From Oscillospiraceae bacterium (GTDB lineage Bacteria > Bacillota > Clostridia > Oscillospirales > CAG-272), in contig SVSX01000004.1 in the NCBI GenBank assembly GCA_015064085.1, positions 1,528-65,527 of the forward strand: 64,000 nt of DNA, in the 5' to 3' direction. The translations under genes were made by a program, and so were the position numbers. Below are positions 2,227 through 51,905 of this stretch, piece by piece (position 1 is the first letter of the stretch; every line of letters begins with the position of its first letter). Under the pieces are notes generated by a model. The model searched no databases and was not told the origin of the DNA. It saw only the letters and a program-made list of their open reading frames with translations.

Positions 2227-2264
2227 ATTGTTATAAACAAAAAATTAAGGAACGGTACTGCAAA

Positions 2265-36430: not shown

Positions 36431-36477
36431 GTTTTATCCGCAATTATAACGCAAAAAGAGGATTGTTTTTTAGCCTA

Positions 36478-36506: not shown

Positions 36507-36538
36507 TCAATCATCGGTATCTAAAAAAGGAGAATATT

Positions 36539-37300: not shown

Positions 37301-37316
37301 TAATACACATAAAAAA

Positions 37317-37347
37317 GCCCCTCGGCAGTTCAAATCCTGCCGAGGGC
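37317..37347. terminator. bidirectional GC-rich hairpin; left boundary of the AT-rich glycan island
   Basis: GCCCCTCGGCAG-TTCAAATC-CTGCCGAGGGC flanked by AAAAAA and TTTT. Near-identical stem to the hairpin at 44845-44871. Confidence 0.75.
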
Positions 37348-37358
37348 ATTTTCCTATA

Positions 37359-38807: not shown

Positions 38808-38808
38808 A

Positions 38809-39792
38809 TTATACCTGCAATTCTATCCAATCGCCCAACGTTCTATCCCATTCTTCGGGAATAAAGAAATTAAAAAGTCCACTTCCATGAAAGAATGTCA
38901 TTTCTCCAACTTTTATCGTTCCGTCACTCAATCTGTATAAATCGACTCTAACATGGGGTATATTTTTTGATAGTTTTTCTGCAACATCAACCATTTCAGA
39001 TAAGTTTTCCGGTAAAATTACCGGAATTGGATAATTTTCTCTCGTCTCTCTAAACGGCATAATATTGCCACTTCTGTCATATATATTTCTAAAATATTGT
39101 TCTGCGTGACCTTCGCTATTCCCAATTACGCCAATGTCTAGGAAGAGGGCTTTCACCTCACCCCCAAAACACATAAATTTATAGTCTAGCAGTCCCTGCT
39201 GTCTTTGCAAATCTCTATAAGTAATTTCGCCACCCGACGTTTCTTGCAAAATTTCACTATTGTCCTCTATATATTCTTCCGCAATAATTCTCGGCTTTAC
39301 GTTTTTATAGGGCCATTCGCGCCAAACCCAAAAATATTTTCTTTTCATTGCAGACTTCAGTTTCTTTTTGACCGCAACAAGATCAAGCGTGGATTTGTCA
39401 CGACATATCACAAGACCTCCGCTGTCATGGGTACATTTAAGCACGAATTTATTCGGAAGCTTATCAAAATCGATATCATTAACCCTATCCCACACACCAA
39501 GAGTTGGAACTATGTATTCTTCGCCTATAATATCGGCAACATATTTCTTAGCCTCATACTTGTCAACCATTTTGGTATATTCCGGTTTGCGGTTGTAAAG
39601 CTTAAGCCATTGAAGCTTTTCATTGAATGTTTTGGGGTCATCAAGATCAAGTTCTTTACCGAAGCTATATTTATATGCACATTTTAAAAAGAACTTATCA
39701 GAAAATAGGTGTGAAAATCCATGCTCATTTAATCTTACTACGAGCTTTGAAGGATTTTTTATCAACTTGATTGCCTTAAAAAACTTATTCAT
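38809..39792 (-). CDS. TupA-like ATP-grasp family protein
   Basis: FNEKLQWLKLYNRKPEYTKMVDKYEAKKYV, LKCTHDSGG, YKFMCFGGE. This matches the ATP-grasp_TupA pattern from memory. Confidence 0.7.
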   Translation of the reverse strand: MNKFFKAIKLIKNPSKLVVRLNEHGFSHLFSDKFFLKCAYKYSFGKELDLDDPKTFNEKLQWLKLYNRKPEYTKMVDKYEAKKYVADIIGEEYIVPTLGVWDRVNDIDFDKLPNKFVLKCTHDSGGLVICRDKSTLDLVAVKKKLKSAMKRKYFWVWREWPYKNVKPRIIAEEYIEDNSEILQETSGGEITYRDLQRQQGLLDYKFMCFGGEVKALFLDIGVIGNSEGHAEQYFRNIYDRSGNIMPFRETRENYPIPVILPENLSEMVDVAEKLSKNIPHVRVDLYRLSDGTIKVGEMTFFHGSGLFNFFIPEEWDRTLGDWIELQV

Positions 39793-41131
39793 TATTTTGC
39801 CTTTCTTTAAAATTATAAATCAAACTAACATACGCAAATGACAGTGAGAGCAAACTTATACCAGAAGAAATGAGCTGGCCCGCCTGTACAAACACTAAAA
39901 TAAGTAAAAGAGGCATATAATTAGCCAAGCATCTCCTAAATCCCAGGGCTTTATGTCTAAACATTTCAACAATAAACCAAGCAAAGAGCATAAGTCCGGG
40001 TATTCCCCAACAAACAACAACTTCCTCTGTTCCGTTATGACATACGTCCATCGCAGTCTTATAAATATTATTAACCTTTACGCCATAATCCTGCAAGCCA
40101 ACTCCAAAGAAGGAATGCTTAAAGCTTGATGCTATATGTTCGCCGTAAAAACCCAGCAAATCTGCACGTCCGTTGGTAATATCGGCAACCTTGAAACGAT
40201 CAACGAACCTCTCAAAAACGTCCGGCATTATCTGGTAAACCAAAATTATCAGTAAAGCAACAAGAAGAATTATTCCAAAAATTCGTTTCACCTTTGCTAC
40301 CGCTGTAGACGTGCCCGAAACAGCAAACATAACAAATATCAAGGCAAAGCACACCAAAAATGTTCTTGACATCGTCATAACACCAAAAAGTGTCAACGCA
40401 ATTATCAGTAGATAGTCGAATATATTGTGTTTTTTTATCGAAACAAGCTGCAGCAGTCCCAAAATGGAAAGGTTTGCAATTTCTCCAAGTCCATTCGCGT
40501 TATAGTTTACACCATAGTTTTTAGTATCCGCATCCCCTACGCCGAAGCGATACGTTCCAAAAAAGATCTCTTCAAAATTGTAGTTTGTCTCTTTAAGCAG
40601 ATTAAGCAAAACTATCGACATCATACAAACCGATGTTATTGCAAGAAGGCGGCATATCATAGGATAATTTATCTTTTTATGTGCCTGTGGCAACACCATC
40701 ATCAAAAAAGCACAGAAAATCAGCTCCGCAAAATTTCTCAGAAATGTATATGCCGAAAAAGCATACTCAAATGCGTGAAGTAGCTCCCATACCATCATAA
40801 AAGCCAATGGGAACACCACAAAGCTGAATCTTATATCCTTCATAAATTTTAAAGCGTATAGCAAAATGCAAATAAATATCAAATATTTATATTGAAATGC
40901 CGCAGACATGGGAATACAGCATATTATGAGCGCAATGATCTCATTACGATCACCTATCAGAGCAATAAACGCTCCTATTGCAAGAATTATCAATACAGGA
41001 ATCGGGAGATCAAAAACATTTCTTGCGAAAATCGCCAGAACCATCACTGCCATTCCAATGTAAAACGGAACGTGTGAACGTTCTTTTGCTCCCCTATTCT
41101 GTTGCCGTGTATTTATAAGTGTGTTAGTCAT
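39785..41131 (-). CDS. O-antigen polymerase/ligase-like (Wzy) membrane protein
   Basis: 448 aa polytopic membrane protein inside a glycan operon. It overlaps both neighbours by 8 nt. Confidence 0.7.
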   Translation of the reverse strand: MTNTLINTRQQNRGAKERSHVPFYIGMAVMVLAIFARNVFDLPIPVLIILAIGAFIALIGDRNEIIALIICCIPMSAAFQYKYLIFICILLYALKFMKDIRFSFVVFPLAFMMVWELLHAFEYAFSAYTFLRNFAELIFCAFLMMVLPQAHKKINYPMICRLLAITSVCMMSIVLLNLLKETNYNFEEIFFGTYRFGVGDADTKNYGVNYNANGLGEIANLSILGLLQLVSIKKHNIFDYLLIIALTLFGVMTMSRTFLVCFALIFVMFAVSGTSTAVAKVKRIFGIILLVALLIILVYQIMPDVFERFVDRFKVADITNGRADLLGFYGEHIASSFKHSFFGVGLQDYGVKVNNIYKTAMDVCHNGTEEVVVCWGIPGLMLFAWFIVEMFRHKALGFRRCLANYMPLLLILVFVQAGQLISSGISLLSLSFAYVSLIYNFKERQNNE

Positions 41132-42224
41132 CTTTTTTTGTATTTACTACCTTTTCGATAAATTCTGCGTACTCTTTCGCCTTCACGTCGATCGAGTGAG
41201 TACGCAATATAGCTCTTGCATTTTTTCCGCAATTCTCTGCGAACGCGGGATCTTCTATGTAACGCAGCATCGCACCCTCAAGTGCCGCCACATCACCAAC
41301 GGGAACAAGAAGCCCGTTGACCTCGTTTTCAATCAATTCCGCAGGACCGTTCGGACAATCTGTAGAGATACAAGGCAATCCTGCCGCCATAGCCTCCATA
41401 AGCGCGTTCGGCATACCTTCGAACTTAGAGCTCATAACGTAACAGGTTGAGTCAGATGCTTGTACGATCGCATCACGGCAAACCCCTTTAAAGATTATTT
41501 TACCGTCCAAGCCCAAATTTCTTGCCTCATTTTTCAGATATTCGGCATATTCACCGTTATCGTTTCCAAATATTTCGAGCACATAATCAGGATAATGTTT
41601 TATAACACTTGCAAAAGCTTTAAAAAGCGTTATATAATCCTTTTGTTCGGCAAGTCTCCCAACCGCACTGATTTTTTTCTTACGTTCGGAAACCTCAGGG
41701 AGGTCATATACCATTTCATTGCCGACAGCATTGTGAATGACACGACCTTTTGATCCAATTTCGTTTGAATAAAAGCTCTTTGCTCTTTCGGTTTGAAAGA
41801 CTATACCGTCACACGCTCTAAACAACTTCTGCTTAAATTCTTGTATATCCGATCTTTCAAACATTGGATTATTTCGTTCTGAGGTTATTAATTTATATTT
41901 TGACCTTTGATATCTTTTAAAAATGTATTTAGAGGTTTCGGGGAGCATACAAAACACTACATCGGGCTCGTTTTCTTTAAGATATTTATTGGTTTTGTAG
42001 TATCTGTTAAACGCGTGAATGTACCTCTGAACTCTGTTTTTTGCCCCTCTGGGAACAGATAATGTAACAAGTTCAACCTTTGGGTCAATAGAATAAAAAA
42101 TATCGTCCGATATAGAAAGCAGAGTCACATTCCAGCCGTTGTTCGCTAAATATGATGAAAGATAGCTTACAGTTCGCTCAGCACCACCGCTGAGCAAATT
42201 GGAAACCAAAAAAGTTATATGCAT
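41124..42224 (-). CDS. glycosyltransferase family 4 (GT-B)
   Basis: MHITFLVSNLLSGGAERTV and a C-terminal E-x7-E type region SSKFEGMPNALMEAMAAGLP. Confidence 0.88.
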   Translation of the reverse strand: MHITFLVSNLLSGGAERTVSYLSSYLANNGWNVTLLSISDDIFYSIDPKVELVTLSVPRGAKNRVQRYIHAFNRYYKTNKYLKENEPDVVFCMLPETSKYIFKRYQRSKYKLITSERNNPMFERSDIQEFKQKLFRACDGIVFQTERAKSFYSNEIGSKGRVIHNAVGNEMVYDLPEVSERKKKISAVGRLAEQKDYITLFKAFASVIKHYPDYVLEIFGNDNGEYAEYLKNEARNLGLDGKIIFKGVCRDAIVQASDSTCYVMSSKFEGMPNALMEAMAAGLPCISTDCPNGPAELIENEVNGLLVPVGDVAALEGAMLRYIEDPAFAENCGKNARAILRTHSIDVKAKEYAEFIEKVVNTKKDD

Positions 42225-42349
42225 AAAATCCCTCTTCGTATTATTTTCTTATTCCTTTAATTAAGCGGATAATAACAGATGCAATCTGGGCAAATGGATA
42301 CAATAGAGCTAAAATTTTTTTAAATCTTTTACTTACAAAATATAAAAAA

Positions 42350-43474
42350 TTATTCTTCAATCAAAGAAATTATTTTTTCTTTATATACATCATTGTTAAA
42401 TTGATTTGCTCGACCTATACTCAAATTACGATATATTTGCATTTTTTCGGTATCATTCAACAAAGAAAGGATAGCTTGCGCTAAATAATGTATTATAAGA
42501 TCTTCTGATGAAGATTCCTCTACTAACACTCCGTATTTTTCCTCAACAATACCAACAGTTCGTGAGGAAGTATAGTGTTCCGAAAGGATTTCCCTTGGAC
42601 CGGACTGACAATCTAATGCTATTATAGGCAACTCGCAACAAAGTGCCTCAATTAAGGCATTCGGAAAGCCTTCATTTCTTGATGATAGCACATATATATC
42701 AGACTGCTTTAAAAATTTGTGTGGATTACTTTGATATCCCATAAAATGTACAGAATCCTGTACGCCTTCACTTATCGATAAATCTTGTAATTTTTCAAAT
42801 AAACTTCCCTGTCCTATGATCATCAGGTTTATATCTGTTCGTTCTTTATGAGCAATCGCAAATGCCTTTATAAGTCTATCAAACCCCTTCACTTCTTCCA
42901 ATCGTCCCATTGAAACAATTAACGGATGCAAAACATTCACTTCAACAGTTTCCTTCAAATTTTCGCAAATATTATTTACATCATAACCATTTTCAATAAC
43001 AATTGTATTTTTTGATGTTGGAAAAAGCGATAACAACTTTTCCTGCATTGATTTTGAAATGCAAATTACTCGATTTGAAAGGCGCATTATAATTCTCATT
43101 ATAAGATCCTTTTTCACCTCTGCAAATCCATGAACAGCTGAAATGCTTTTCCCAGGAGAAAAAATGCCGGAAATAACATTCGTAATATTAGCTGTTTTTC
43201 CAAACGAGATAACGGCATAAGCCCTGTTCTTTTTTCTGATTTTTATAATGCCAGATATACGTCTGCATTGATTTAAAATTTTTTTAAAAACACCGTTTCG
43301 GGTTGGTATTTCCAAATTTATAACTTCACACGGATATTCATACTCAACCTTTTTTTTCTGAAAAATAATCATTTTTACATTATATTTTTCTTCCAAACAG
43401 CGCACCGTATTTATAGCTATTTTTTCTTGTCCACCTATACCAAGCGAAGGAACTAAAAGTAGTACTGTCTTCAT
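42350..43474 (-). CDS. glycosyltransferase family 4 (GT-B)
   Basis: LLLVPSLGIGGQEKI, SSRNEGFPNALIEALCCELP. Start at MKTVLL (43474), forming an ATGA overlap with the upstream GT. Confidence 0.85.
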   Translation of the reverse strand: MKTVLLLVPSLGIGGQEKIAINTVRCLEEKYNVKMIIFQKKKVEYEYPCEVINLEIPTRNGVFKKILNQCRRISGIIKIRKKNRAYAVISFGKTANITNVISGIFSPGKSISAVHGFAEVKKDLIMRIIMRLSNRVICISKSMQEKLLSLFPTSKNTIVIENGYDVNNICENLKETVEVNVLHPLIVSMGRLEEVKGFDRLIKAFAIAHKERTDINLMIIGQGSLFEKLQDLSISEGVQDSVHFMGYQSNPHKFLKQSDIYVLSSRNEGFPNALIEALCCELPIIALDCQSGPREILSEHYTSSRTVGIVEEKYGVLVEESSSEDLIIHYLAQAILSLLNDTEKMQIYRNLSIGRANQFNNDVYKEKIISLIEE

Positions 43475-44607
43475 CGTTCTTCCTCTATCATCATACAATA
43501 AAAATCATCAAGCAATTTTGCCGATTCAATTATATCAAATCCTGCATTTCTGATGTCCTTTATTACATCTTTCTTGTTTAAATTCGGCTTAAGTATTTCA
43601 TCCACCCACAAATTTATTCCTTTGTTTATTGGCAGATATTTTACAAGAACTGACGTGTTAACATCTCTCGTTACGGTATCGGAAACGAGGCACGTTAAGC
43701 CCGCGGCTTGAGCCTCTACAACCGTAACCGGAAGTCCTTCCCATTTGGACGGAAACACAAACACATCCATAGCCTGCATAAGCTGTGGAACATCGTTTCT
43801 ATTCCCTGTCAAAACAACATATTCATCCAAATCAAGTGAACGAATTTTTTCTTCTATTTGACCGCGAAGATCTCCATCACCGACAAGCAAAAGAACCGCA
43901 TCGGTTCTTTTCTTACGAACCTCGGCGAAAACATCAAGTAAAAACATATGGTTTTTCGCTTCATGAAATCTTCCAACGTGACCAATAACGAACTTATTTT
44001 CCAGTCCTAACTGTTTTCTATATTCTTCAGATATTTCTTTTCTATATCTGTACTTTTCGACATCTATAGCATTAGGCAAGAAGAAATAATTATCCTTAAG
44101 ACAAGCTTTCTTTCCATAAAGCCATTGTCCCGCTTCATTAGAGCATGCCATTAAATAATCAGCCTGGTATCGTAAAGGAAATTGCAAAATCCGCTTTGAA
44201 ATTGCTGCTACTCCTTTACCATTTGAGGTACTGTGACTGTGTATAATAGTTTTTACCCCATATTTTTTTGCGATTGGTATGTAAACAGATGCGTAGCTTC
44301 TGACATGAGAATGAAGTATTTTATATTCTGGGTGTTCAGAAAAAAATTTTTTCCAGGCTTTTTTTATTTGAAAATAGTTTTTTCCGGTAAACCTTGGCAT
44401 TTTATAAATTCTTGCGCCGAGAGAGCGAACGACCTCAGCCAACGCCATACGATCAGGATGATCAACTATAAAATCAAACTGAATTTTTGTTCTATCTATT
44501 GCCTTGTAATAATTGATAACCAAAGCTTGAGATCCGCCCACCTCGAAGCTTCCAATCATATGTAAAATACGAACAGGTTCACTTGTATAAATATCATTTT
44601 CAATCAT
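43471..44607 (-). CDS. glycosyltransferase family 4 (GT-B)
   Basis: RILHMIGSFEVGGSQALV, PSKWEGLPVTVVEAQAAGL. GAGG RBS. Confidence 0.88.
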   Translation of the reverse strand: MIENDIYTSEPVRILHMIGSFEVGGSQALVINYYKAIDRTKIQFDFIVDHPDRMALAEVVRSLGARIYKMPRFTGKNYFQIKKAWKKFFSEHPEYKILHSHVRSYASVYIPIAKKYGVKTIIHSHSTSNGKGVAAISKRILQFPLRYQADYLMACSNEAGQWLYGKKACLKDNYFFLPNAIDVEKYRYRKEISEEYRKQLGLENKFVIGHVGRFHEAKNHMFLLDVFAEVRKKRTDAVLLLVGDGDLRGQIEEKIRSLDLDEYVVLTGNRNDVPQLMQAMDVFVFPSKWEGLPVTVVEAQAAGLTCLVSDTVTRDVNTSVLVKYLPINKGINLWVDEILKPNLNKKDVIKDIRNAGFDIIESAKLLDDFYCMMIEEER

Positions 44608-44844: not shown

Positions 44845-44871
44845 CCCCTCGGCGGATTTTCCGCCGAGGGG
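44845..44871 (-). terminator. intrinsic terminator after the 5'-nucleotidase gene; right boundary of the AT-rich island
   Basis: CCCCTCGGCGG-ATTTT-CCGCCGAGGGG. On the minus strand it is followed by AACTTTTT. Confidence 0.75.
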
Positions 44872-44920: not shown

Positions 44921-46894
44921 TCAGGCAGTCTTTCTCTTTTTTACAGCAAAATAATAGACGGCAAACGCTCCTGCGCCTATCACCACGACGCCTATGGGTA
45001 TCGCTATCCACGGCGAAACACTGTCATCGGGAACGGGATTTTCTACAGGTGCTATTGTTGTTGCAGCAGTTGTGCTGCTTTCGGTAGCTACTGTTGTTGA
45101 GGCAACGGCTCTTTTATTTAAAGTGATTCGTCCGCTGCCGTTCAGGCTATCATAATTTGTGTTAAAGCCCTCATACTTTGTCGCAAGCGGTGCTTTATCG
45201 CTCTTGACCTCACTATTTTCAAATGCCATAATATAATTTGCCAACACCATATAATCCTCCATTACGTAATCGAGGATATTGACCGCTCCCTCAAACATCG
45301 CAAAGCCGTCTCCAAGATCGCGAAGGGTATAATTATATCCCGCAAGATTATATTTTGCGTTAAGATCAAGCGCATCCCATTTCTTTGTTTCTTTGTTATA
45401 TATCTCGACGCTATGTACGCGATACTCTCCAGTAGGACCTCCTATCCAGACACCCTTGTCGTCCTTCCTTGTGGTATCCTCTATTGAGGTATCTATCTGA
45501 TATCTCATTCCCGAGACGTGCAAAAATCCACCGCTCTCGGCAGTTCCTATAAGCCTCGCGCCCCATTCAAGGGCATCAAGCAGCTGTCTTCCGCTTACCT
45601 CTTGCAAACAAGCAACATTTCCAAAGGTATGTATTTCCTTGCAGACCTTATAGGTGAGTGTTCCCGTCACCTCTTTATTTCGGATACCGCCTCCGTTCAT
45701 TACCGCAACATCGACGTCGAGTCCCATATCGTCAAAGAGATAATAGAGCGCATCAGCCGCAAAATCGCCCGTGTTTGTTTCCTGTGAGCGTACCAGACGG
45801 TTTCCGTCCTTATCATAATTATCAAATTTAATATCAGTAGTGCCGATAGTGACATTCAGAAGCTCGTCGACCTCTGCTATCCAGCTATCCTTGATTGACT
45901 TCACCGCACTGTCGGAAATAATCTCCGTACCGCTGTAAAGCTCAGAGATAAGCCTATATCCCTCAACGGTTTTACCGTCGGAGGCAAGGATCTCGTCCCA
46001 TTCTATAAAATCGGTGTCTATTGCTCCCGTGTCGGAATCTATTATCATTATACCGATGCGGTCGAAATACTGACCCGTCTGAGTAAGAACAACGTCGTGA
46101 CCTTCCTTGTCCTTTACGATATCATTTTCGACTATATTGTGTGAATGTCCGTCAATAAAAGCATCAAAGCCACAGACTCCCGCTATAGTCTCTATGCTTG
46201 TATAGGGCGAGGAGGAAAGATCGATCCCGAGGTGACCGAGACCAACGATCTGCGTTGCTCCTGCCGCCTTTGCGGCGTCAATTGCCTTTTGAACATCCTG
46301 GCGGAGAGTAGATCCGTCATTGCCTCCCGAAATTCCATAAATGTAATTTCCATGTTCGTCCTGAAAATACGCGGGGGTAGATTTTGTGAAGGTGTCGGGG
46401 GTCGTTATTCCCACAAAAGCGACCTTTTCCTCTCCGCACTCAAACATAACGTAGCTATCGAGCACGTTTTCGCCTCTTACGCCGTTAGATTCGTGATAAA
46501 AGTTTGCCGATACGTATGGAAAATCTGCAAGAGCGATAACGTTCATACAGCCACTCATTCCGTAATCAAACTCGTGATTTCCAAGTGTAGCCACGTCATA
46601 TCCCGCGGCGTTCATAAGCTCGATGATGGATTCGCCCTTGTCCATAGAGCCGTATGCCGTTCCCTGAATATGGTCTCCCGCATCGGCTAAAATCACGTGA
46701 TCATATTTTGTTTTAAGATCCTTCTTTATTGCCGAGATAACGTCATAGCTAAGCTTACCGTCAATATAGGTGTGTACGTCATTCGTATACAAGATGACTA
46801 TGTCGTCGGACAGCGCGTTACTTTCGGCGTTTATCGGGATAGCCACCGAAAGCAGGATAGCCATCGCCATAAAGACTGCAAATATTTTTTTCAT
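44921..46894 (-). CDS. surface-anchored bifunctional metallophosphatase/5'-nucleotidase
   Basis: Signal peptide MKKIFAVFMAMAILLS. Metallophosphatase motifs NDVHTY, DAGDHIQG, GNHEFD, GHSH. 5'-nucleotidase C-domain, a Thr/Ser-rich linker and a C-terminal TM anchor (IAIPIGVVVIGAGAFAVYYFAVKKRK). Start moved to the second Met (GGAG RBS). Confidence 0.88.
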   Translation of the reverse strand: MKKIFAVFMAMAILLSVAIPINAESNALSDDIVILYTNDVHTYIDGKLSYDVISAIKKDLKTKYDHVILADAGDHIQGTAYGSMDKGESIIELMNAAGYDVATLGNHEFDYGMSGCMNVIALADFPYVSANFYHESNGVRGENVLDSYVMFECGEEKVAFVGITTPDTFTKSTPAYFQDEHGNYIYGISGGNDGSTLRQDVQKAIDAAKAAGATQIVGLGHLGIDLSSSPYTSIETIAGVCGFDAFIDGHSHNIVENDIVKDKEGHDVVLTQTGQYFDRIGIMIIDSDTGAIDTDFIEWDEILASDGKTVEGYRLISELYSGTEIISDSAVKSIKDSWIAEVDELLNVTIGTTDIKFDNYDKDGNRLVRSQETNTGDFAADALYYLFDDMGLDVDVAVMNGGGIRNKEVTGTLTYKVCKEIHTFGNVACLQEVSGRQLLDALEWGARLIGTAESGGFLHVSGMRYQIDTSIEDTTRKDDKGVWIGGPTGEYRVHSVEIYNKETKKWDALDLNAKYNLAGYNYTLRDLGDGFAMFEGAVNILDYVMEDYMVLANYIMAFENSEVKSDKAPLATKYEGFNTNYDSLNGSGRITLNKRAVASTTVATESSTTAATTIAPVENPVPDDSVSPWIAIPIGVVVIGAGAFAVYYFAVKKRKTA

Positions 46895-46934
46895 TTTTTT
46901 CTCCATTTCGATATTGAAATTTACTCTTTTTTAA

Positions 46935-47345
46935 TCAGCCTCTGTTTGCGGGATTGTTGCACAGCCATTTACCCTTTGTGTAAATGATATATTTGCAATC
47001 ACCGCAATAGTTCACGGACAAATTACCGTTATTGCATCGGTGACTATAAAGGAATACAGACTTAAAGGACTCGGCTTGTGTCTTTCCGCATTGACTGCAG
47101 ACGTAACAGCTATGCTGCTCTCCAACGGTAATTACAGGTCTGCCCCCGTCATAGCACCAGCCTCCCGCAACCTTGTCAAGGACGTCGTCCGAAAGCTCAC
47201 CGCTATTGGGATGAAGCTGTTCGAAATATTTTTTTGCCTCTTCCTCTGTAAGCTCTAATTCATATTCTTTTGCGAGGGTGATCAACTCCTCCACTGACCT
47301 AGCCTTCTTTGCAAGACCGATCATTTCAGATGTGATTTTTTTCAT
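46935..47345 (-). CDS. Nif11-like double-glycine leader (62 aa) fused to a 74-aa 8-Cys core; RiPP/bacteriocin-precursor-like or Nif11-domain zinc-ribbon protein
   Basis: The leader SVEELITLAKEYELELTEEEAKKYFEQL...ELSDDVLDKVAGG resembles Nif11-type leaders ending in GG. The core begins WCYDGG and carries CYVCSQC ... C-x9-CGDC ... C. GAGG RBS 9 nt upstream. Confidence 0.6.
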   Translation of the reverse strand: MKKITSEMIGLAKKARSVEELITLAKEYELELTEEEAKKYFEQLHPNSGELSDDVLDKVAGGWCYDGGRPVITVGEQHSCYVCSQCGKTQAESFKSVFLYSHRCNNGNLSVNYCGDCKYIIYTKGKWLCNNPANRG

Positions 47346-47393: not shown

Positions 47394-47801
47394 TTAAATT
47401 TTCTTTTTTATAGTGAGTATGTTCTGACCGTCCTTGTACTCGTAGGTGATCTCATCCATAGTTTTCTTTACCATATAGATACCGAGACCTCCTATTTCTC
47501 TATCGTCTGCCGAAAGAGTGACGTCAGGTTCTTTCGCACCAAGAGGATCGTAAGGAACTCCGTTATCTATAAAGGTTATGATGACCGCAAGAGGCTCGGG
47601 ATTTACCTCGACCCTTACGGTCGCCTCTCCGACCTCGGGATCATAGGCATAGTGAGCAATGTTACCAAAAAGCTCGTCGATAGCTATATCTATCTGCATC
47701 TGTGCCTTCAGCGGACACTCAAGGGCTTCAAGCTGCTCGTTCACAAACTCCGTCACAGCCTCAATATTTTCTACCGTTGCGGCAATTGTCAGCTCTTTCA
47801 T
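47394..47801 (-). CDS. RsbW/SpoIIAB-like anti-sigma-type serine kinase (HATPase_c)
   Basis: 135 aa. ELFGNIAHYAY (N-box-like) and DNGVPYDPL...GGLGIYMVKKTMDE (G-boxes). ATGA overlap with the phosphatase gene. Confidence 0.8.
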   Translation of the reverse strand: MKELTIAATVENIEAVTEFVNEQLEALECPLKAQMQIDIAIDELFGNIAHYAYDPEVGEATVRVEVNPEPLAVIITFIDNGVPYDPLGAKEPDVTLSADDREIGGLGIYMVKKTMDEITYEYKDGQNILTIKKKI

Positions 47802-49666
47802 TCGGATACCTCCTCTCGATCGTTATTTTTTCCGTTGAAGCGAAGACAGAGCATCGTTATATCATCAAATTGAGGAGCTCCCAAGACAAAGGCATCCACA
47901 TCGGACTTTACTGCCTCGCAGACAGCCGAGGTGTCGGCATCCGCATTTTTGTTAAGCACCTCAAGCAATCTTTCTTCACCGTAAAGTGAATTATTAAGAT
48001 CTGTAGCCTCGGTAACACCGTCGGTGTACAGATATATTACGTCTCCCTTTTCGAGCTGAAGCTCATTTTTTCGGTAACGTATTCCCTCCATACCTGCGAG
48101 AACAAAACCGGGGCGAGATCTGAGATAGCTGAAGCTTCCGTCGCCGTGCTTTACAAGGGGCGGATTGTGACCTGCGTTTGCGTAGGTTACCTTTCCCGTT
48201 TTGAGATCAAGAAGTCCCATCCAGGCTGTTACAAACATACCGGCGTCATTACCTTCGCAAAGCTTATCGTTGGCAACGGTGAATATCTCCTCAATGCTCA
48301 TTCCCGACTCGGCATAGCTCTTAAGCAGGGTCTTGGAGGTCATCATAAACATTGCCGCGGGAATTCCCTTACCCGAAACGTCGGCTACGAGGAAAGCCAA
48401 GGTATCGTCATCTACAAAATAAAAATCGTAAAAGTCGCCTCCGACCTCCTTTGCGGTATGCATCACGGCATTTATCTCAAATTCGTGTCTGTTTGGGTAC
48501 GGCGGAAATACAGATGGCAGTGCCGAATGCTGTATCGCCTTGGCAAAGGCAAGCTCGGCGTCTATCCTTGCCGCCGCATCCGAAATATAACGCTTAAGTG
48601 TATCTACTGTAGAATTGATGTCATTTGAAAGATCATCAAACTCGGCGTGAGAACGAACGTCTACCACTGTGTCAAGATTTCCGTCGGTGATCGATGACAG
48701 CGAGCTGTTTATCTTATATATATTCTTGACAACAAGTCGGTTCACGAGGAAGAATATCAGAATAAAGAGCGCTGTGAAGATCACTATCTGCATTGCGGTC
48801 GTCACACCGACCGCCACGTTTCTTGAAAGCGCCGCCTCTCTTTGCGGCATTACCGCAACTATCGTGTATCCCTCGCTTGTCTGGTACATACAGTAGCTTG
48901 CTTCGCCGTAAACCTCACAAATAAACCTTTCGTTCGCGGGAGTCGACTCCTTATCTATCCAGATACCCGTAACGTCAAGATTTTTTCCTTCGTTTCCTTG
49001 GCGATCACTGACAATATTCCAATTCTCATCGACAATTATTATCGAGCCGCCCTCGCCAACGTGACGGTTTCTTGTTACGCCCACAACAAATTCGTCAATA
49101 TCACGCTGAAATCTTTCAGCGCCGTAGCCAACCTGGACAAACCCGCCATTCTCAAGTGATACCCCTCCGTATTTTCTCGATATCGAGTTGTCATAGGAAA
49201 CAGGGCGGTAGCTTTGAACGTATTCCTCTTTATCGGAAAGCAACACCAAAAATTCCGCCGACTGTTTCCCGCTATCCATTCTGTAATCCAAAAAATCAGG
49301 ATAGGTACTTGCTCTTATCACTCCGTCGGGATCAATATAATTGATTTCGGTAACGTCATATTTCTCGGCAAGAGCTGAAAGCAGCTCAGAGGAAATGCTG
49401 TCTGCCCCATTGAGATCGTCAGCCACCTGATGTGTAAGCTTCAGAAGATTTTCGTCGGATGCGTCTGTAATATCCTCGCGCACATCGGAAATATTAAGTC
49501 TCAGAAGGCTTATAGCATTGTTGTCTGCAAGCTTTGTCTGAAGCAGCCACAAAAACGCTGTGGTCGCAAGAAAGGCTATCACGACAAGAACGAGTAACCA
49601 ACGCTGGAACGATTGCGATATTTTGCGTTTTTTTCTGTTTTTTTTCATTATCTTATCTTTGATCAT
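47798..49666 (-). CDS. membrane sensor PP2C (SpoIIE/RsbU-type) serine phosphatase with extracytoplasmic domain and HAMP
   Basis: TM1 (WLLVLVVIAFLATTAFLWLL), an extracytoplasmic region of about 230 aa, TM2, a HAMP-like segment (SSITDGNLDTVVDV..DDLSNDINSTV), then PP2C motifs GGDFYDF, VADVSGKG, YTDGVTEA, DDITML. Confidence 0.85.
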   Translation of the reverse strand: MIKDKIMKKNRKKRKISQSFQRWLLVLVVIAFLATTAFLWLLQTKLADNNAISLLRLNISDVREDITDASDENLLKLTHQVADDLNGADSISSELLSALAEKYDVTEINYIDPDGVIRASTYPDFLDYRMDSGKQSAEFLVLLSDKEEYVQSYRPVSYDNSISRKYGGVSLENGGFVQVGYGAERFQRDIDEFVVGVTRNRHVGEGGSIIIVDENWNIVSDRQGNEGKNLDVTGIWIDKESTPANERFICEVYGEASYCMYQTSEGYTIVAVMPQREAALSRNVAVGVTTAMQIVIFTALFILIFFLVNRLVVKNIYKINSSLSSITDGNLDTVVDVRSHAEFDDLSNDINSTVDTLKRYISDAAARIDAELAFAKAIQHSALPSVFPPYPNRHEFEINAVMHTAKEVGGDFYDFYFVDDDTLAFLVADVSGKGIPAAMFMMTSKTLLKSYAESGMSIEEIFTVANDKLCEGNDAGMFVTAWMGLLDLKTGKVTYANAGHNPPLVKHGDGSFSYLRSRPGFVLAGMEGIRYRKNELQLEKGDVIYLYTDGVTEATDLNNSLYGEERLLEVLNKNADADTSAVCEAVKSDVDAFVLGAPQFDDITMLCLRFNGKNNDREEVSE

Positions 49667-49959
49667 TCTATTGTGAGGATGTCAGAAAAGCCCGTAACCT
49701 CAAATATCTCCATAATGGTATCGTTTACGTTACGAACGGTCATTCTACCCTGCTTGTTCATTACCTTTTGCGCCGCAAGGATCACGCGAAGTCCCGCGGA
49801 CGACAGATACTCAAGATTCAAAAAGTCGAACACCAGATATTCAACTCCTTCGATAGAGCGCTTCAGCTCAGCCTCAAGCTGAGGGGCTGTGGTAGTGTCG
49901 AGTCTGCCCTCGATCCTGAGAGTAAGCTCTGTTTCGTTGGTTATTTTTTCGATATTCAT
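49663..49959 (-). CDS. STAS-domain anti-sigma-factor antagonist (RsbV/SpoIIAA-like)
   Basis: 98 aa. LEYLSSAGLRVIL contains the conserved phosphorylatable Ser context (DSSGL-like). ATGA overlap with the phosphatase gene. Confidence 0.85.
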   Translation of the reverse strand: MNIEKITNETELTLRIEGRLDTTTAPQLEAELKRSIEGVEYLVFDFLNLEYLSSAGLRVILAAQKVMNKQGRMTVRNVNDTIMEIFEVTGFSDILTIE

Positions 49960-49989: not shown

Positions 49990-50028
49990 AGATCTGCCAT
50001 ACTATTATAATAACAGTATAACAGATCT
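49990..50028 (-). promoter_or_regulatory. 39-bp near-perfect palindrome: terminator of the LuxR gene and/or operator/promoter of the partner-switching operon
   Basis: Minus strand: AGATCTGTTATACTGTTAT-T-ATAATAGTATGGCAGATCT (19-nt arms, 3 mismatches), followed by TTTTT. It contains TATAAT in the centre and lies 30 nt upstream of the STAS ATG. Confidence 0.5.
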
Positions 50029-50116
50029 TTGTATTTTTGTTTATTACCCAAACGGTGTTTTTAAGGTCTTTTTTATAGTAAAAAACATATCCTAAAAGTG
50101 AAAAAAAGATATATTG

Positions 50117-51376
50117 TCACAGTATGTACGCGAACTCATCTCGGCTCATACCCGACTTTTCGCTGGTGGTTCTTATTGCCTGCTTTACTACAGAAAGCGA
50201 CATATGAAGCTTTTCAGCTATTTGCGCGTTACTCATTCCAAAGGCGGCAAGCTTTGCCACGTCTCTTTCCTTTTGCGTAAGCGTCGTTGCTATCTGCCGT
50301 CCTAACACCACGCTGCCGAGCTTAGACCAGCCTGCGTTATATATCCTGCTAAGCGCCTTTACAGCTTGACACACTTCTACATCCACAGCGGAGAGTCTGC
50401 TTTCAAGAAGAGTATCAAGCACACGCCAATATTCGGCAAGAAGTCCGAAGAGTCTATCGGGTATCGCAAGAGCAATAGCACGATCCAGATGCCTTACAGC
50501 GTTCTCCTCATTGCCGCTGAGGCGGTATACAGTAGCGCAGGTCATACGGAGATATATTTCCGATATGATCGAATTATCCGCCTTCGCCTGAGATATCATC
50601 GGCTCAAGGGTAAACGGAACCATCGCCATAAGGGAAAGTCCTTGTACTCCCTCTACTCCCATCTGCTTTGTTGCAACCGCATACGCCGCAGCGTAAAGAT
50701 ATTTAGCGTAATATACCTTTGCGGCAGGCAACGCGTCTTTATGCAACGGCTCAAAATTTCCCATTTTGAACCACTCGGGAAAGTTTGAAACATCATAAAG
50801 CATACTGTCAACAGCTGTAATTGCAAGAGCCATAATATCTCGGTCATTATCATCCTTCGCGGGGGCTTCGGCAATGTGCTGTTTTGCCTGACGCCACATT
50901 ACGAGATCCCCGCGCCAGATGGCGCAAAGCGCCAAAAGCATTCCCGCCGAAATAATAGCATAAAAGCCCGAGTGCTTATGTAAAAGATAGTTTGCGCTGT
51001 TATATACTCTGTCGATATTTCCCCTTGAGTACGACACCTCGGCTTCAAAAAGCACCTGTGCCTCTCGGTTATCTGAAAGTGCCTCGACTGCTTCATCGGC
51101 ACTTCCCGGCACACTGTAGAGATCGCTCATATACAGAAAGGGAGTTTTTCTCGGCAGAGGCTGATTTAAAAGCTCCGGCTTCTTCCCTTCCTTTGTCCTT
51201 CCGTCAACAGGGCGGACCGCGTCCTTCGGTATCATCCAATCACGCCCGAACCTTACAGCGCCGTTTATCCTTCCCGCGGCACAAAGTGCCTGAACTCTGC
51301 GAGGGGTCACCTCCCACCGCTCTGCCGCCGCGTCTATTTTCATATAATTTTTTGAAAGCTCCTGCACATCCTTCAT
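50117..51376 (-). CDS. LuxR-family transcriptional regulator with N-terminal excisionase/MerR-like HTH and central helical-repeat domain
   Basis: The C-terminal LTQKERDVAKLAAFGMSNAQIAEKLHMSLSVVKQAIRT is a LuxR/GerE HTH. The N-terminal ERWEVTPRRVQALCAAGRINGAVRFGRDWMIPKD is HTH_17-like. Start at MKDVQE (51376; alternative 51382). The track start TTG 51487 is the -35 hexamer of the promoter. Confidence 0.8.
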   Translation of the reverse strand: MKDVQELSKNYMKIDAAAERWEVTPRRVQALCAAGRINGAVRFGRDWMIPKDAVRPVDGRTKEGKKPELLNQPLPRKTPFLYMSDLYSVPGSADEAVEALSDNREAQVLFEAEVSYSRGNIDRVYNSANYLLHKHSGFYAIISAGMLLALCAIWRGDLVMWRQAKQHIAEAPAKDDNDRDIMALAITAVDSMLYDVSNFPEWFKMGNFEPLHKDALPAAKVYYAKYLYAAAYAVATKQMGVEGVQGLSLMAMVPFTLEPMISQAKADNSIISEIYLRMTCATVYRLSGNEENAVRHLDRAIALAIPDRLFGLLAEYWRVLDTLLESRLSAVDVEVCQAVKALSRIYNAGWSKLGSVVLGRQIATTLTQKERDVAKLAAFGMSNAQIAEKLHMSLSVVKQAIRTTSEKSGMSRDEFAYIL

Positions 51377-51458
51377 CAGCATCGCTCCTTTTTGTATCGC
51401 AAAATCATTCACCATTATTCGTTTTGCGAACAATAACATTATTCGTCTGGCGTACTTT

Positions 51459-51487
51459 ATTATATAACTTTTTTTTCGAATTGTCAA
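51459..51487 (-). promoter_or_regulatory. consensus sigma-A promoter for the LuxR-family gene
   Basis: Minus strand reads TTGACA (51487..51482), a 17-nt spacer, then TATAAT (51464..51459). AAAGGAG RBS downstream. Confidence 0.65.
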
Positions 51488-51704: not shown

Positions 51705-51905
51705 ATGGCAAGCAACAAGACACTTGTTCCCGAAGCAAAGGAAGCTCTTGAGAAGTTTAAGATGGAAGCTGCAAACGAGGTTGGTGTAAACCTTACTCAG
51801 GGTTACAACGGTGACCTCACAGCACGTCAGGCAGGCAGCATCGGCGGTCAGATGGTTAAAAAGATGATCGAGTCCTACGAGAACTCTATCAAGACAAATA
51901 AGTAA
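51705..51905 (+). CDS. alpha/beta-type small acid-soluble spore protein
   Basis: 66 aa. LVPEAKEALEKFKMEAANEVGV...TARQAGSIGGQMVKKMIE is canonical SASP. AGGAGA RBS. Confidence 0.95.
   Translation: MASNKTLVPEAKEALEKFKMEAANEVGVNLTQGYNGDLTARQAGSIGGQMVKKMIESYENSIKTNK

What the first reader, a model, noticed from the sequence alone, without database searches (positions are those of the whole stretch)
47394..49959. Partner-switching module (STAS, sensor PP2C, RsbW-like kinase) with no sigma factor gene
Seen in sequence:
- Three genes joined by ATGA start/stop overlaps: a STAS antagonist, a PP2C phosphatase (two TM helices, an extracytoplasmic domain of about 230 aa, a HAMP segment) and a HATPase_c anti-sigma-type kinase.
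- No sigma factor ORF in the operon or anywhere in the window.

Established knowledge: in the RsbV/RsbW/SigB and SpoIIAA/AB/SigF systems, the kinase sequesters a sigma factor encoded in the same operon. Sigma-less partner-switching modules are known, for example Bordetella BtrUVW and Vibrio/Pseudomonas HsbA-type systems, but their outputs are mostly unresolved.

Inference: the phosphatase senses an extracellular cue. The binding target of the kinase is something other than an operon-encoded sigma factor. The next ORF, the Nif11/Cys-rich protein, is the obvious candidate.
Basis: partly seen in the sequence, partly recalled or inferred. Interest (0 to 1): 0.65.

Follow-up and report, generated by a model that had tools for sequence, protein, structure and literature searches.

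The report
Orphaned sensor switch of peptide-bacteriocin cluster
The three genes are a real, intact partner-switching signalling module, but it lacks a sigma factor because this genome has lost the middle of a widespread clostridial gene cluster for exported cysteine-rich peptides, a cluster that normally carries its own sigma factor.

Summary
STAS (98 aa), a TM–dCache–TM–HAMP–PP2C phosphatase (622 aa) and an RsbW-like kinase (135 aa) are joined by ATGA overlaps. All catalytic motifs are intact, and no sigma gene was detected in the 64 kb.

The 136-aa downstream ORF is a full-length member of a large family of Nif11-leader, double-glycine, Cys-rich precursor peptides. It is cargo, not a likely kinase target.

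The kinase subfamily is very conserved: 71–84% identity in the 80 best of 573 genome loci. Among the 25 loci whose PP2C is orthologous to this one:
- 19 carry the NHLP-type export ABC pair (usually preceded by a short HlyD-like gene) right after the kinase;
- 18 carry a dedicated ECF sigma, usually with a translationally coupled small protein and often a conserved ECF-type promoter;
- most also carry precursor arrays and a radical-SAM maturase, and some a secreted 5'-nucleotidase.

The window keeps only module + one precursor + 5'-nucleotidase, probably one sigma-A-driven operon. A second genome (L030) shows an independent deletion of the same kind.

Best model: a dCache-sensing partner switch that in intact clusters releases the ECF sigma. 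Here the output arm is deleted or supplied in trans. I found no paper describing the link between a partner switch and this type of peptide cluster.

The parts
50015..50043 (-). Sigma-A-type promoter-like site (TAAACA-17-TATACT, with TG) about 55 nt upstream of the STAS start codon
   Evidence: Consensus scan. STAS genes of relatives have similar TATACT/TATAAT elements upstream. This is a consensus match only; function is not shown.
49663..49959 (-). STAS anti-sigma-factor antagonist (98 aa); predicted phospho-acceptor Ser54 in YLSSAGL
   Evidence: PF01740 57.9 bits and TIGR00377 68.8 bits, above its cut-off of 53.45. The xSSAGL motif is present in 66 of 69 homologous STAS proteins.
47798..49666 (-). 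Sensor phosphatase (622 aa): TM1 (nt 49541-49600), dCache ectodomain (48821-49540), TM2 (48746-48820), HAMP (48593-48742), PP2C/SpoIIE domain (47837-48412)
   Evidence: Pfam. Hydropathy shows two hydrophobic segments. AF2 pLDDT 87.8 with Foldseek hits to the tandem Cache domains of PscC, Mlp24, Tlp3 and PctA, E down to 2.7e-11. Metal-binding motifs are intact. Protein found 100% identical in 7 metagenome contigs read.
47394..47801 (-). RsbW-like serine kinase / anti-sigma-type protein (135 aa)
   Evidence: PF13581 72.8 bits. The only PDB sequence match is B. subtilis RsbW, 6m36. N, G1 and G2 boxes are conserved. More than 8000 database relatives at E<1e-10, with hundreds at 83-87% identity.
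46935..47345 (-). Nif11-type double-glycine precursor peptide (136 aa): leader residues 1-62 (nt 47160-47345, ends ELSDDVLDKVAGG), Cys-rich core residues 63-136 (nt 46938-47159)
   Evidence: 42-48% identity over its full length to precursors in clusters L084, L019, L039, L082, L057 and L077; the conserved Cys scaffold is retained. 1564 representative clusters at E<1e-3. AF2 pLDDT 86: helical leader plus beta-rich core. TIGR03798 scores only 18.1 bits, below its cut-off of 32.3.
44921..46906 (-). Secreted, C-terminally membrane-anchored 5'-nucleotidase family protein (661 aa), last gene of the operon
   Evidence: PF02872 and PF00149. Signal peptide and C-terminal TM anchor read from the sequence. 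A 5'-nucleotidase lies downstream of the kinase on the same strand in 8 other genome loci: L008, L017/L018, L021, L030, L034/L036 and L043.
44845..44871 (-). Strong intrinsic-terminator-like hairpin (12 bp, 10 G-C) 50 nt after the 5'-nucleotidase stop. No terminator-like site was found between the kinase, precursor and nucleotidase genes; weak internal hairpins (3-4 G-C) were listed inside the PP2C and nucleotidase ORFs.
   Evidence: Intergenic gaps are 48 nt (kinase to precursor) and 28 nt (precursor to nucleotidase).
50117..51487 (-). GerE/LuxR-type HTH regulator upstream of the module (456-aa ORF; called as 440 aa in the public record)
   Evidence: PF00196 26.9 bits. 49% identical over 403 aa to the regulator at the same position upstream of the intact cluster in L039. 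Its role in the system is not tested.

Best explanation
**What it is.** The locus is the sensory and regulatory head of a widespread clostridial gene cluster for exported, Cys-rich, double-glycine-leader (Nif11-type) peptides. In this genome the middle of that cluster is missing.

**Intact cluster layout (shown by comparison).**
- A sigma-A-type promoter drives STAS, PP2C, kinase, a short HlyD-like protein, a C39-peptidase ABC exporter and a second ABC exporter.
- A second unit, usually behind a conserved ECF-type promoter (AGCCATTTT-N11-CGTATAAATAA), encodes a small 57-96-aa protein translationally coupled to an ECF sigma.
- The cluster also carries 1-8 precursor genes and a radical-SAM/SPASM maturase. 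These usually follow the sigma but precede it in L039. A secreted 5'-nucleotidase sometimes ends the cluster.

**What the window retains (shown).** Only STAS, PP2C, kinase, one precursor and the 5'-nucleotidase remain, apparently as one sigma-A-driven operon. There is no sigma, small protein, exporter, maturase or ECF promoter.

**Mechanism (inferred from the RsbU/RsbV/RsbW paradigm).**
1. A ligand binds the extracytoplasmic dCache domain and signals through HAMP to activate the PP2C.
2. The PP2C dephosphorylates STAS-Ser54-P.
3. Unphosphorylated STAS captures the kinase.
4. The kinase lets go of its target. The target is most likely the cluster's ECF sigma, bound either directly or through the small protein.
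5. The freed sigma then transcribes its own operon and the precursor and maturase genes.

**Consequence here (inferred).** The output arm has been deleted. The intact and conserved switch therefore either acts on a copy of that sigma encoded elsewhere in the genome, or is an orphan that merely co-transcribes a leftover precursor and the nucleotidase.
For: **Module is real and intact.**

**Sensor is a dCache domain.**

**Homologous locus L007/L008.** It contains STAS, PP2C, kinase, a HlyD-like gene, the C39-ABC exporter, the second ABC exporter, a 78-aa gene, an ECF sigma, two precursors, a rSAM maturase and a 5'-nucleotidase.
- The ABC exporters pass the curated cut-offs: TIGR03796 943 > 853 and TIGR03797 733 > 709.
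- The sigma is ECF type, TIGR02937 71 bits.

**Synteny across 80 genome loci.**
- Among the 25 loci whose PP2C is at least 60% identical over at least 96% of its length, 19 have the ABC pair and 18 have the sigma.
- 21 of the 23 with at least 5 kb downstream have at least one of the two.
- The closest non-identical kinase (87%) is followed by a 157-aa ORF of HlyD-like size and position and the start of a further ORF; Pfam gave no call for either.

**The sigma is tied to the module.**
- It is directly adjacent to module genes in L034, L036, L038, L040, L043, L059 and L082.
- A reciprocal search from the sigma alignment in metagenomes returns full clusters (L097, L106-L108), sigma-kinase adjacency (L098, L118) and sigma-STAS neighbours (L100, L109, L112).

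**Conserved ECF-type promoter.** It is found 19 times against 3.2 expected, almost always just upstream of the small-protein/sigma operon or of precursors.

**The window ORF is a bona fide precursor family member.**

**Independent deletion in L030.** There the kinase is followed by the ECF promoter, a C-terminal rSAM remnant (aa 341-435, 52% identity) and the 5'-nucleotidase.

**The window lacks the output arm.** No sigma, small protein, HlyD-like gene, ABC exporter or rSAM homologue, and no ECF-promoter match (best score 15.8; real sites 20-29; shuffles reach 17.9).

**Operon structure.**
Against: - No experiment or complex prediction links this kinase to the ECF sigma.
- I know of no described case of an RsbW-type kinase controlling an ECF sigma. 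One paper uses RsbW-like proteins as a non-interacting control for ECFs (PMC7406223).
- The sigma has its own translationally coupled small partner, which could be its real anti-sigma. That would leave the kinase another role.
- About half of the 80 kinase loci sit in other contexts (NRPS-like genes, transporters) with no sigma within 10 kb. The kinase subfamily may therefore not need a linked sigma.
- The direction of change (deletion here versus insertion elsewhere) rests on parsimony and on the L030 remnant. No remnant was found in the window itself.
- The rest of this genome, including about 105 kb of the same contig, could not be searched.
Confidence: 0.55

Rival explanations
1. STAS-output switch, as in SiaABCD, HsbA/HsbR or MlaB. 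The kinase and phosphatase only set the phosphorylation state of the STAS protein. The STAS protein itself, rather than the kinase, regulates a non-sigma target, for example the ATPase of the neighbouring ABC exporter (as MlaB does with MlaF), the upstream LuxR-type regulator, or something unlinked. In this model the small protein is the true anti-sigma of the ECF sigma.
For: - The PP2C architecture (TM, ectodomain, HAMP, PP2C) gives its best NCBIfam hit to SiaA, and the STAS gives a weak hit to MlaB.
- The module is co-transcribed with ABC exporters in intact clusters (gaps of 1-17 nt in L039).
- In other contexts the STAS gene directly follows an ABC ATPase gene (L031, L040, L043, L049, L067).
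- The sigma has its own translationally coupled small partner.
- Many kinase loci have no sigma within 10 kb.
Against: - The SiaA and MlaB hits are far below their curated cut-offs (64 vs 700; 19.6 vs 90).
- There is no ABC transporter or GGDEF gene in the window.
- The sigma gene lies directly beside the kinase gene in several loci, some of which have no STAS nearby (L034, L036, L098).
- The kinase is the most conserved of the three proteins (71-84% against 40-77% for PP2C). That suggests it carries a constrained extra interface.
Confidence: 0.2
2. Non-functional remnant. After loss of the exporter, sigma and maturase genes, the module, the orphan precursor and possibly the nucleotidase no longer do anything useful and are on their way to decay.
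For: - All partner genes and the ECF promoter are absent from the window.
- Partial clusters and an independent deletion exist in other genomes (L030, L081, L089).
- In L008 the sigma itself is frameshifted in several samples.
Against: - All five ORFs are intact with every catalytic motif conserved.
- The PP2C is 100% identical in 7 metagenome contigs read.
- The gene spacing is compact, with a promoter-like site and a strong terminator.
- The precursor keeps the Cys scaffold of its subfamily.
Confidence: 0.15
3. First reader's model. The kinase sequesters the product of the next ORF, the Nif11/Cys-rich 136-aa protein, in place of a sigma factor.
For: - The gene is adjacent and probably co-transcribed in this window.
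- Kinase-type modules and Cys-rich Nif11 ORFs do co-occur in many genomes.
- The core is predicted to fold into a compact Cys-rich domain (pLDDT 86).
Against: - The protein carries a canonical export leader, ELSDDxLDxVAGG. Compare the N11P motif ELSDEELEAVAGG in PMC2887384.
- It belongs to a hypervariable multi-copy family, up to 8 paralogues per cluster at 33-40% core identity, while the kinase stays 71-84% identical.
- In orthologous clusters the precursors lie 5-8 kb from the kinase, behind the exporters and the sigma, and the gene after the kinase is the short HlyD-like export gene.
- Clusters can use an unrelated short-leader precursor type with the same module (L013, L027).
Confidence: 0.04

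Closest known systems
Bacillus subtilis RsbU/RsbP-RsbV-RsbW-SigB and SpoIIE-SpoIIAA-SpoIIAB-SigF partner switches
   Same: The same three protein families are present with the same catalytic motifs, including the phosphorylatable Ser in the STAS S-x-G-L motif. The genes are translationally coupled. The only PDB sequence match of the kinase is RsbW, 6m36.
   Different: - There is no group-3 sigma gene.
- The scores are far below the equivalog cut-offs: RsbW 39 vs 145, SpoIIAB 25 vs 135, SpoIIAA 53 vs 115.
- The phosphatase is a membrane dCache-HAMP sensor.
- In relatives the associated sigma is a roughly 160-aa ECF type with a small co-translated partner, and the regulon appears to be a peptide-export cluster rather than a stress or sporulation regulon.
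NHLP/Nif11 (N11P) precursor and export clusters (Haft, Basu & Mitchell 2010, PMC2887384; TIGR03794/03796/03797/03798)
   Same: - The leader is about 60 aa and ends in ELSDDxLDxVAGG, followed by a Cys-rich variable core.
- Relatives carry the C39-ABC exporter and the second ABC exporter above the curated cut-offs, a HlyD-like protein, radical-SAM maturases and paralogous precursor arrays.
   Different: - The window has only one precursor and no exporter or maturase.
- The HlyD-like protein of the relatives is a 157-179-aa stub that matches only the first 54 positions of TIGR03794.
- The cores are unusually long (about 70 aa) and are predicted to fold.
- No partner-switching or sigma regulator is mentioned in the 2010 description.
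Sigma-less partner-switching systems: Pseudomonas SiaABCD, HsbR/HsbA, Bordetella BtrUVW, Vibrio SypE/SypA
   Same: There is no sigma gene in the operon. The PP2C has a TM-ectodomain-HAMP architecture, as SiaA does, and SiaA is its best NCBIfam hit.
   Different: - The SiaA score is 64 against a cut-off of 700.
- There is no diguanylate cyclase, response-regulator or type III secretion context.
- Here the absence of a sigma looks secondary, because orthologous modules sit in clusters that contain an ECF sigma.
Three-component regulation of class II bacteriocins and lantibiotics (inducing peptide, histidine kinase, response regulator)
   Same: The logic is the same. An operon combining exporter and sensor sits next to a separately promoted operon of structural genes for double-glycine-leader peptides. 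A small leader-like peptide is encoded with the regulator.
   Different: The signal chain would be dCache-PP2C, then STAS and kinase, then ECF sigma, instead of histidine kinase and response regulator. Whether the small protein is a pheromone is untested.

Membership tests
RsbV/RsbW/PP2C-type partner-switching module | STAS antagonist with a phosphorylatable Ser in the D/S-S-x-G-L motif | tested here: met
   PF01740 57.9 bits and TIGR00377 68.8 bits, above its cut-off of 53.45. YLSSAGL is conserved in 66 of 69 homologues.
RsbV/RsbW/PP2C-type partner-switching module | HATPase_c_2 serine kinase with N, G1 and G2 boxes | tested here: met
   PF13581 72.8 bits. Matches RsbW 6m36. ELFGNIAHY, DNGVPYD and GGLGI are present.
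RsbV/RsbW/PP2C-type partner-switching module | PP2C (SpoIIE-family) phosphatase with metal-binding Asp motifs | tested here: met
   PF07228 180.9 bits. GGDFYD, DVSGKG, YTDGV and DDIT are present.
RsbV/RsbW/PP2C-type partner-switching module | Cognate sigma factor encoded in or next to the operon | tested here: not met
   No sigma in the window. However, an ECF sigma is present in 18 of 25 orthologous loci.
RsbV/RsbW/PP2C-type partner-switching module | Kinase phosphorylates STAS and binds its target in a mutually exclusive way | not testable with these tools
   Needs biochemistry or multimer prediction.
SigB (RsbW) or SigF (SpoIIAB/SpoIIAA/SpoIIE) equivalogs | Score above the NCBIfam equivalog cut-offs | tested here: not met
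   RsbW 39.3 vs 145; SpoIIAB 24.8 vs 135; SpoIIAA 53 vs 114.75; SpoIIE 40.3 vs 490.8.
NHLP/Nif11 (N11P) peptide cluster | Precursor with a Nif11-type leader ending in a double-glycine motif | tested here: inconclusive
   The leader motif ELSDDVLDKVAGG is present, with full-length homology to cluster precursors. TIGR03798 scores only 18.1 bits against a cut-off of 32.3. Relatives reach 31.9.
NHLP/Nif11 (N11P) peptide cluster | TIGR03796 and TIGR03797 export ABC pair, with a TIGR03794 HlyD-like protein, nearby | tested here: not met
   Absent from the 64-kb window. The ABC pair is present above its cut-offs in the related locus L008 and in 19 of 25 orthologous loci.
NHLP/Nif11 (N11P) peptide cluster | Maturation enzyme (radical SAM/SPASM, LanM or cyclodehydratase) nearby | tested here: not met
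   There is no rSAM/SPASM homologue next to the precursor. The only radical-SAM protein found in the window (2217-3587) is a UPF0004/MiaB-type enzyme 43 kb away. A rSAM/SPASM gene is present in relatives.
SiaABCD-type sigma-less switch | SiaA-equivalog phosphatase and a diguanylate cyclase output gene | tested here: not met
   NF038263 scores 64 bits against a cut-off of 700. No GGDEF gene is present in the operon.

The most novel reading that the evidence does not exclude
A family of ECF sigma factors in gut and rumen Clostridia is controlled by an RsbV/RsbW/PP2C partner switch wired to a dCache receptor. This would be a combination not described for ECF sigmas. The cassette would act as an auto-induction circuit for Cys-rich double-glycine peptide clusters:
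1. The small protein co-translated with the sigma (LFDYQxF...SDDDLxxVSAAGE plus a short basic tail) is a leader-bearing signal or anti-sigma element.
2. The cluster's C39 exporter processes it.
3. Its product, or nucleosides released by the conserved secreted 5'-nucleotidase, is what the dCache domain senses.

On this reading the window holds a naturally 'unplugged' version of that circuit.
Probability: 0.25. Interest if true: 0.75.

Novelty: new variant of a known kind. Interest (0 to 1): 0.5.

Why it matters
- **A concrete candidate output.** Partner-switching modules without a sigma gene are common and mostly unexplained. Here comparative genomics points to a specific ECF sigma family with its own promoter motif. 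It also points to a regulon: an export cluster for Cys-rich peptides.
- **A regulatory route not yet reported.** Peptide-bacteriocin/RiPP clusters in abundant gut and rumen Clostridia may be switched on through a dCache-PP2C partner switch rather than a two-component system. Knowing the sensor and promoter would help activate silent clusters.
- **A portable cassette.** The same very conserved kinase cassette also sits next to NRPS-like and transporter genes. It may be a portable regulatory unit for secondary metabolism.
- **This particular locus.** It is a degraded example and is of modest interest in itself.

Tried and rejected
1. **Word-based homologue search with the 136-aa ORF.** It found only 4 relatives, which wrongly suggested a rare protein. 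Full HMMER search and the synteny set show a large family.
2. **First greedy ORF caller.** It lost the kinase in about 30 loci. I replaced it with a codon-usage-scored caller and forced the kinase position by tblastn.
3. **Remnants of deleted genes or a sigma in the window.** Nothing found. The two intergenic gaps, 48 and 28 nt, are too short to hold remnants.
4. **The ECF promoter motif in the window, by regex and by PWM.** No site above background. The GGCTTTT upstream of the precursor lacks the CGTAT -10 element.
5. **Rfam scan of 44.0-52.5 kb.** No RNA family found.
6. **Foldseek of the precursor model against PDB.** No significant match, so the core fold stays unassigned.
7. **Pfam on the small sigma-coupled protein and on the short HlyD-like protein.** No family found.
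8. **Literature searches.** I combined Nif11, RiPP or bacteriocin with anti-sigma antagonist, partner-switching, ECF or PP2C. No paper describes this association. This is not proof of absence, because subscription journals are not covered.
9. **Mirror-tree co-evolution of kinase and sigma.** Considered and dropped, because all cluster genes share one history and the test would not discriminate.
10. **Walking along the remaining ~105 kb of the contig to look for a sigma.** Not attempted, because it would take about 10 look-ups for little gain.


Full report
**1. The observation**

On the minus strand there are three ORFs: STAS at 49663-49959 (98 aa), a PP2C at 47798-49666 (622 aa) and a kinase at 47394-47801 (135 aa). 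Both junctions read ...GAATGA..., so the stop codon of one gene overlaps the start of the next.

Pfam assigns the following:
- STAS, PF01740, 57.9 bits.
- SpoIIE/PP2C, PF07228, 180.9 bits, residues 419-610. A just-sub-threshold HAMP (21.3 vs 25) covers residues 309-358.
- HATPase_c_2, PF13581, 72.8 bits.

NCBIfam places the STAS in the anti-sigma-antagonist superfamily above its cut-off. None of the three proteins comes near the SigB or SigF equivalog cut-offs. The kinase's only sequence match among solved structures is B. subtilis RsbW.

Hydropathy shows exactly two hydrophobic segments in the phosphatase, at about residues 23-42 and 283-310. Every catalytic motif is present: STAS YLSSAGL, the kinase N/G1/G2 boxes, and PP2C GGDFYD/DVSGKG/YTDGV/DDIT.

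No sigma factor was found in the window:
- Pfam on 20 mid-size ORFs gave none.

**2. The operon is five genes, not three**

The kinase is followed after 48 nt by the 136-aa ORF, and that ORF after 28 nt by a 661-aa 5'-nucleotidase. No terminator-like site lies between these genes, although the scan listed weak hairpins (3-4 G-C) inside the PP2C and nucleotidase ORFs. A 12-bp, 10-G-C hairpin follows the nucleotidase at 44871-44845. A sigma-A-like promoter with an extended -10 lies upstream of STAS. No Rfam family is present.

**3. The sensor**

I aligned 25 ectodomain sequences: the window's and 24 homologues. Some sources name these homologues 'cache and HAMP domain-containing protein'. The alignment gave an AlphaFold2 model with mean pLDDT 87.8. 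Foldseek matches it to tandem-Cache ligand-binding domains of chemoreceptors and kinases, including PscC (6mni, E 2.7e-11), Mlp24, Tlp3, PctA and a Roseburia uracil receptor. Probability is 1.00, although TM-scores are modest at 0.43-0.47. The ligand is unknown.

**4. The 136-aa ORF**

The word-based search found only four relatives, but one of them led to the key locus. A full HMMER search finds 1564 representative clusters at E<1e-3. In the synteny set the window protein aligns over its full length at 42-48% identity with precursors from L084, L019, L039, L082, L057, L077 and others.

The alignment shows two parts:
- a conserved leader ending in GELSDDELDNVSGG;
- a core with the scaffold C-x-GDGR-VVTVGH-C-x3-CxxCG...C...CxxCxY...YEKGLWLCN.

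The window keeps all Cys residues typical of its subfamily. The leader matches the published N11P motif ELSDEELEAVAGG (PMC2887384) and the description of NHLP/Nif11 precursors in anaerobes (PMC4289311). AlphaFold2 predicts a helical leader and a compact beta-rich core (pLDDT 86), which has no PDB match. The ORF is therefore a double-glycine-leader precursor peptide.

**5. What the relatives look like**

The locus of homologue P0002 (L007/L008) reads as follows:
- STAS
- PP2C (811 aa, with an extra 5TMR-LYT domain)
- kinase (76% identical to the window's)
- a 158-aa HlyD-like protein
- a C39-peptidase ABC exporter
- a second ABC exporter
- a 78-aa ORF
- an ECF sigma
- two precursors
- a radical-SAM/SPASM enzyme
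- a 5'-nucleotidase

NCBIfam confirms this. The exporters pass the curated cut-offs for the NHLP bacteriocin export pair (943 > 853; 733 > 709). The sigma is ECF type, and the maturase is rSAM/SPASM.

The kinase family is huge and very conserved. There are more than 8000 relatives at E<1e-10, with hundreds at 83-87% identity. A scan found 573 genome loci, and the best 80 are 71-84% identical across Lachnospiraceae, Oscillospiraceae, Hungatella and others.

I called genes in all 80 loci and labelled them against reference proteins:
- Roughly a third show the full cluster.
- The rest place the module next to other things, including NRPS-like 1400-1500-aa proteins, MATE and SDF transporters, and a TetR regulator with a hydrolase. 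None of these has a detectable sigma within 10 kb.

The PP2C is more diagnostic than the kinase. I ranked loci by identity to the window's PP2C. Among the 25 loci with at least 60% identity over at least 96% of the length:
- 19 carry the NHLP ABC pair.
- 18 carry the ECF sigma.
- 21 of the 23 with at least 5 kb of downstream sequence have at least one of the two.

The nearest non-identical kinase (87%) is followed by a 157-aa ORF of HlyD-like size and position and the start of a further ORF, neither with a Pfam call. L039 (Faecousia) even shares the upstream LuxR-type regulator, at 49% identity.

**6. The sigma belongs to the module**

All the cluster sigmas are one family, about 160 aa with the signature ASxSTWIYTITRN. 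They are nearly always preceded, with an ATGA overlap, by a 57-96-aa protein with the motif LFDYQxF...SDDDLxxVSAAGE. That protein has no Pfam family.

In L034, L036, L040 and L043 the sigma lies directly upstream of the kinase. In L059 the order is kinase, small protein, sigma. In L038 and L082 the sigma heads the module.

As a reciprocal test I searched metagenomes with a sigma alignment. Family members with at least 39% identity sit in one of three settings:
- inside full clusters headed by STAS-PP2C-kinase (L097, L106-L108);
- next to the kinase (L098, L118);
- near a STAS gene (L100, L109, L112).

Upstream of the small-protein/sigma operon there is a conserved ECF-type promoter, AGCCATTTT-N11-CGTATAAATAA. 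A regex for it finds 19 sites in 1.34 Mb against 3.2 expected. Almost all are intergenic and lie just upstream of that operon or of precursors. By contrast, the STAS-PP2C-kinase-exporter block is tightly packed and sits behind sigma-A-type promoters.

This is the layout of a constitutively expressed sensor and exporter operon plus an inducible, autoregulated structural operon.

**7. What happened in the window**

The window has no homologue of the sigma, small protein, HlyD-like protein, ABC exporters or maturase. It also has no match to the ECF promoter: the best PWM score is 15.8, real sites score 20-29, and shuffled sequence reaches 17.9.

L030 shows an independent event of the same kind. 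There the kinase is followed by the ECF promoter, then a C-terminal fragment of the rSAM gene (aa 341-435, 52% identity), then the 5'-nucleotidase. L081 and L089 are other partial forms.

Parsimony therefore says the window's five-gene operon is a deletion derivative of the full cluster. This is inference, because no remnant survives in the window itself.

**8. Mechanism**

Shown:
- the parts list;
- the dCache sensor;
- intact catalytic motifs;
- the synteny with exporter, sigma and precursors;
- the promoter motif;
- the absence of the output genes here.

Inferred from the Rsb/SpoIIA paradigm:
1. A ligand activates the PP2C.
2. STAS-Ser54-P is dephosphorylated.
3. STAS captures the kinase.
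4. The kinase's target is freed.

The most likely target in intact clusters is the ECF sigma, directly or through the small protein. I put this at roughly even odds, for two reasons. I found no precedent for RsbW-type control of an ECF sigma, and PMC7406223 uses RsbW-like proteins as a non-interacting control. The small protein could also be the real anti-sigma.

The main rival is a STAS-output switch in the manner of SiaC, HsbA or MlaB, possibly acting on the ABC exporter. It is an export substrate, it is multi-copy and hypervariable, it lies far from the kinase in intact clusters, and it can be replaced by an unrelated short-leader peptide type (L013, L027).

**9. Comparison and novelty**

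The module is a member of the RsbV/RsbW/PP2C kind. It is not an equivalog of the SigB or SigF systems, nor of SiaA. The peptide side belongs to the NHLP/Nif11 export world described by Haft et al. (PMC2887384). That paper mentions neither 'sigma' nor 'regulator', and the word 'kinase' appears only for a large Ser/Thr kinase in Burkholderia-type clusters.

Six literature searches found no description of a partner switch or a dedicated ECF sigma attached to such clusters. I therefore rate the cluster type as a new variant of known kinds. The window itself is a degraded example of that cluster type.

**10. Verdict**

- The 'missing sigma' is best explained by gene loss from a cluster that normally has one.
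- Interest is moderate at 0.5. The window locus itself is ordinary or degenerate, but it exposes a widespread, apparently undescribed regulatory cassette for peptide natural-product clusters in gut and rumen Clostridia.

Noticed in passing
L054:10523-10759 (also L008:8832-9068, L039:18185-18364, L013:18739-18954, L087:15425-15661): A 57-96-aa protein is translationally coupled (ATGA overlap) to the cluster's ECF sigma. It has the conserved motif LFDYQxF...SDDDLxxVSAAGE followed by a short, variable, basic tail. The motif resembles a double-glycine leader and also the STAS SSAGL site. It has no Pfam family. It could be an anti-sigma, a kinase substrate, or a pheromone precursor.
   Followed up: partly
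L045:15442, L054:10473, L057:15371, L062:15392, L074:15356, L008:8783, L015:656, L025:10750, L030:1179: A conserved ECF-type promoter, AGCCATTTT-N11-CGTATAAATAA, lies upstream of the small-protein/sigma operon and of some precursor genes. It occurs 19 times against 3.2 expected and is absent from the window.
   Followed up: yes
L008:9065-9548 (same in L007, L009-L012, L078): The cluster's ECF sigma is split by a frameshift: region 2 lies in one frame (9065-9286) and region 4 in another (9213-9548). The same 73-aa call appears in contigs from several samples, so this is either a real pseudogene or a recoding site.
   Followed up: no
L030:1165-1532: An independent deletion of the whole peptide cluster. 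The kinase stop is followed by the ECF promoter and a C-terminal radical-SAM remnant (aa 341-435 of 438, 52% identity), then the 5'-nucleotidase.
   Followed up: yes
window 44921-46906; L008:12005-13726, L021:10419-12611, L043:2214-4115, L034:11569-13248, L017:11472-13106: A secreted 5'-nucleotidase (33-64% identity between most loci; 89-100% within the L017/L018/L030 and L034/L036 groups) recurs downstream of the kinase on the same strand in 9 loci, with or without the peptide genes in between. Its role is unknown. Possibilities include processing of a product or generating a nucleoside signal for the dCache sensor.
   Followed up: partly
L017:4330-8514, L040:14411-18913, L029:3668-5422, L028:10405-11985: The same highly conserved kinase cassette also sits next to other gene types: NRPS-like proteins of 1400-1500 aa (condensation-adenylation-carrier-reductase by sequence motifs), a MATE transporter with a HATPase-like C-terminal extension, and an SDF-type transporter with a HATPase_c_2-like N-terminal domain. 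This suggests a portable regulatory unit for secondary-metabolite and transport loci.
   Followed up: no
L013:15310-19949, L027:9092-9857: Clusters with the closest PP2C and kinase relatives encode arrays of a different precursor type. These have a short leader (MENKKLKNPMLNELDEDMLGNVSGG) and cores with paired CxxC motifs that look like zinc ribbons.
   Followed up: no
window 36000-44600: A low-GC stretch (0.35-0.41 against about 0.46 elsewhere) carries polysaccharide genes: three GT4 glycosyltransferases, a Wzy-type polymerase, an ATP-grasp TupA-like protein and a Wzx-type flippase. It is probably a horizontally exchanged surface-polysaccharide island directly downstream of the operon.
   Followed up: no
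window 51459-51487: A perfect sigma-70 consensus (TTGACA-17-TATAAT) coincides with the TTG at the head of the 456-aa LuxR-type ORF. The real start is therefore probably downstream, matching the 440-aa call in the public record.
   Followed up: no
window 51705-51905: An alpha/beta-type small acid-soluble spore protein gene (PF00269, 107.5 bits) suggests that the organism is an endospore former. It should then have sporulation sigma factors and their own SpoIIAA/SpoIIAB elsewhere in the genome.
   Followed up: no
window 6289-7314 and 63160-63765: Two sizeable ORFs (341 aa and 201 aa) have no Pfam family at E<1e-3.
   Followed up: no
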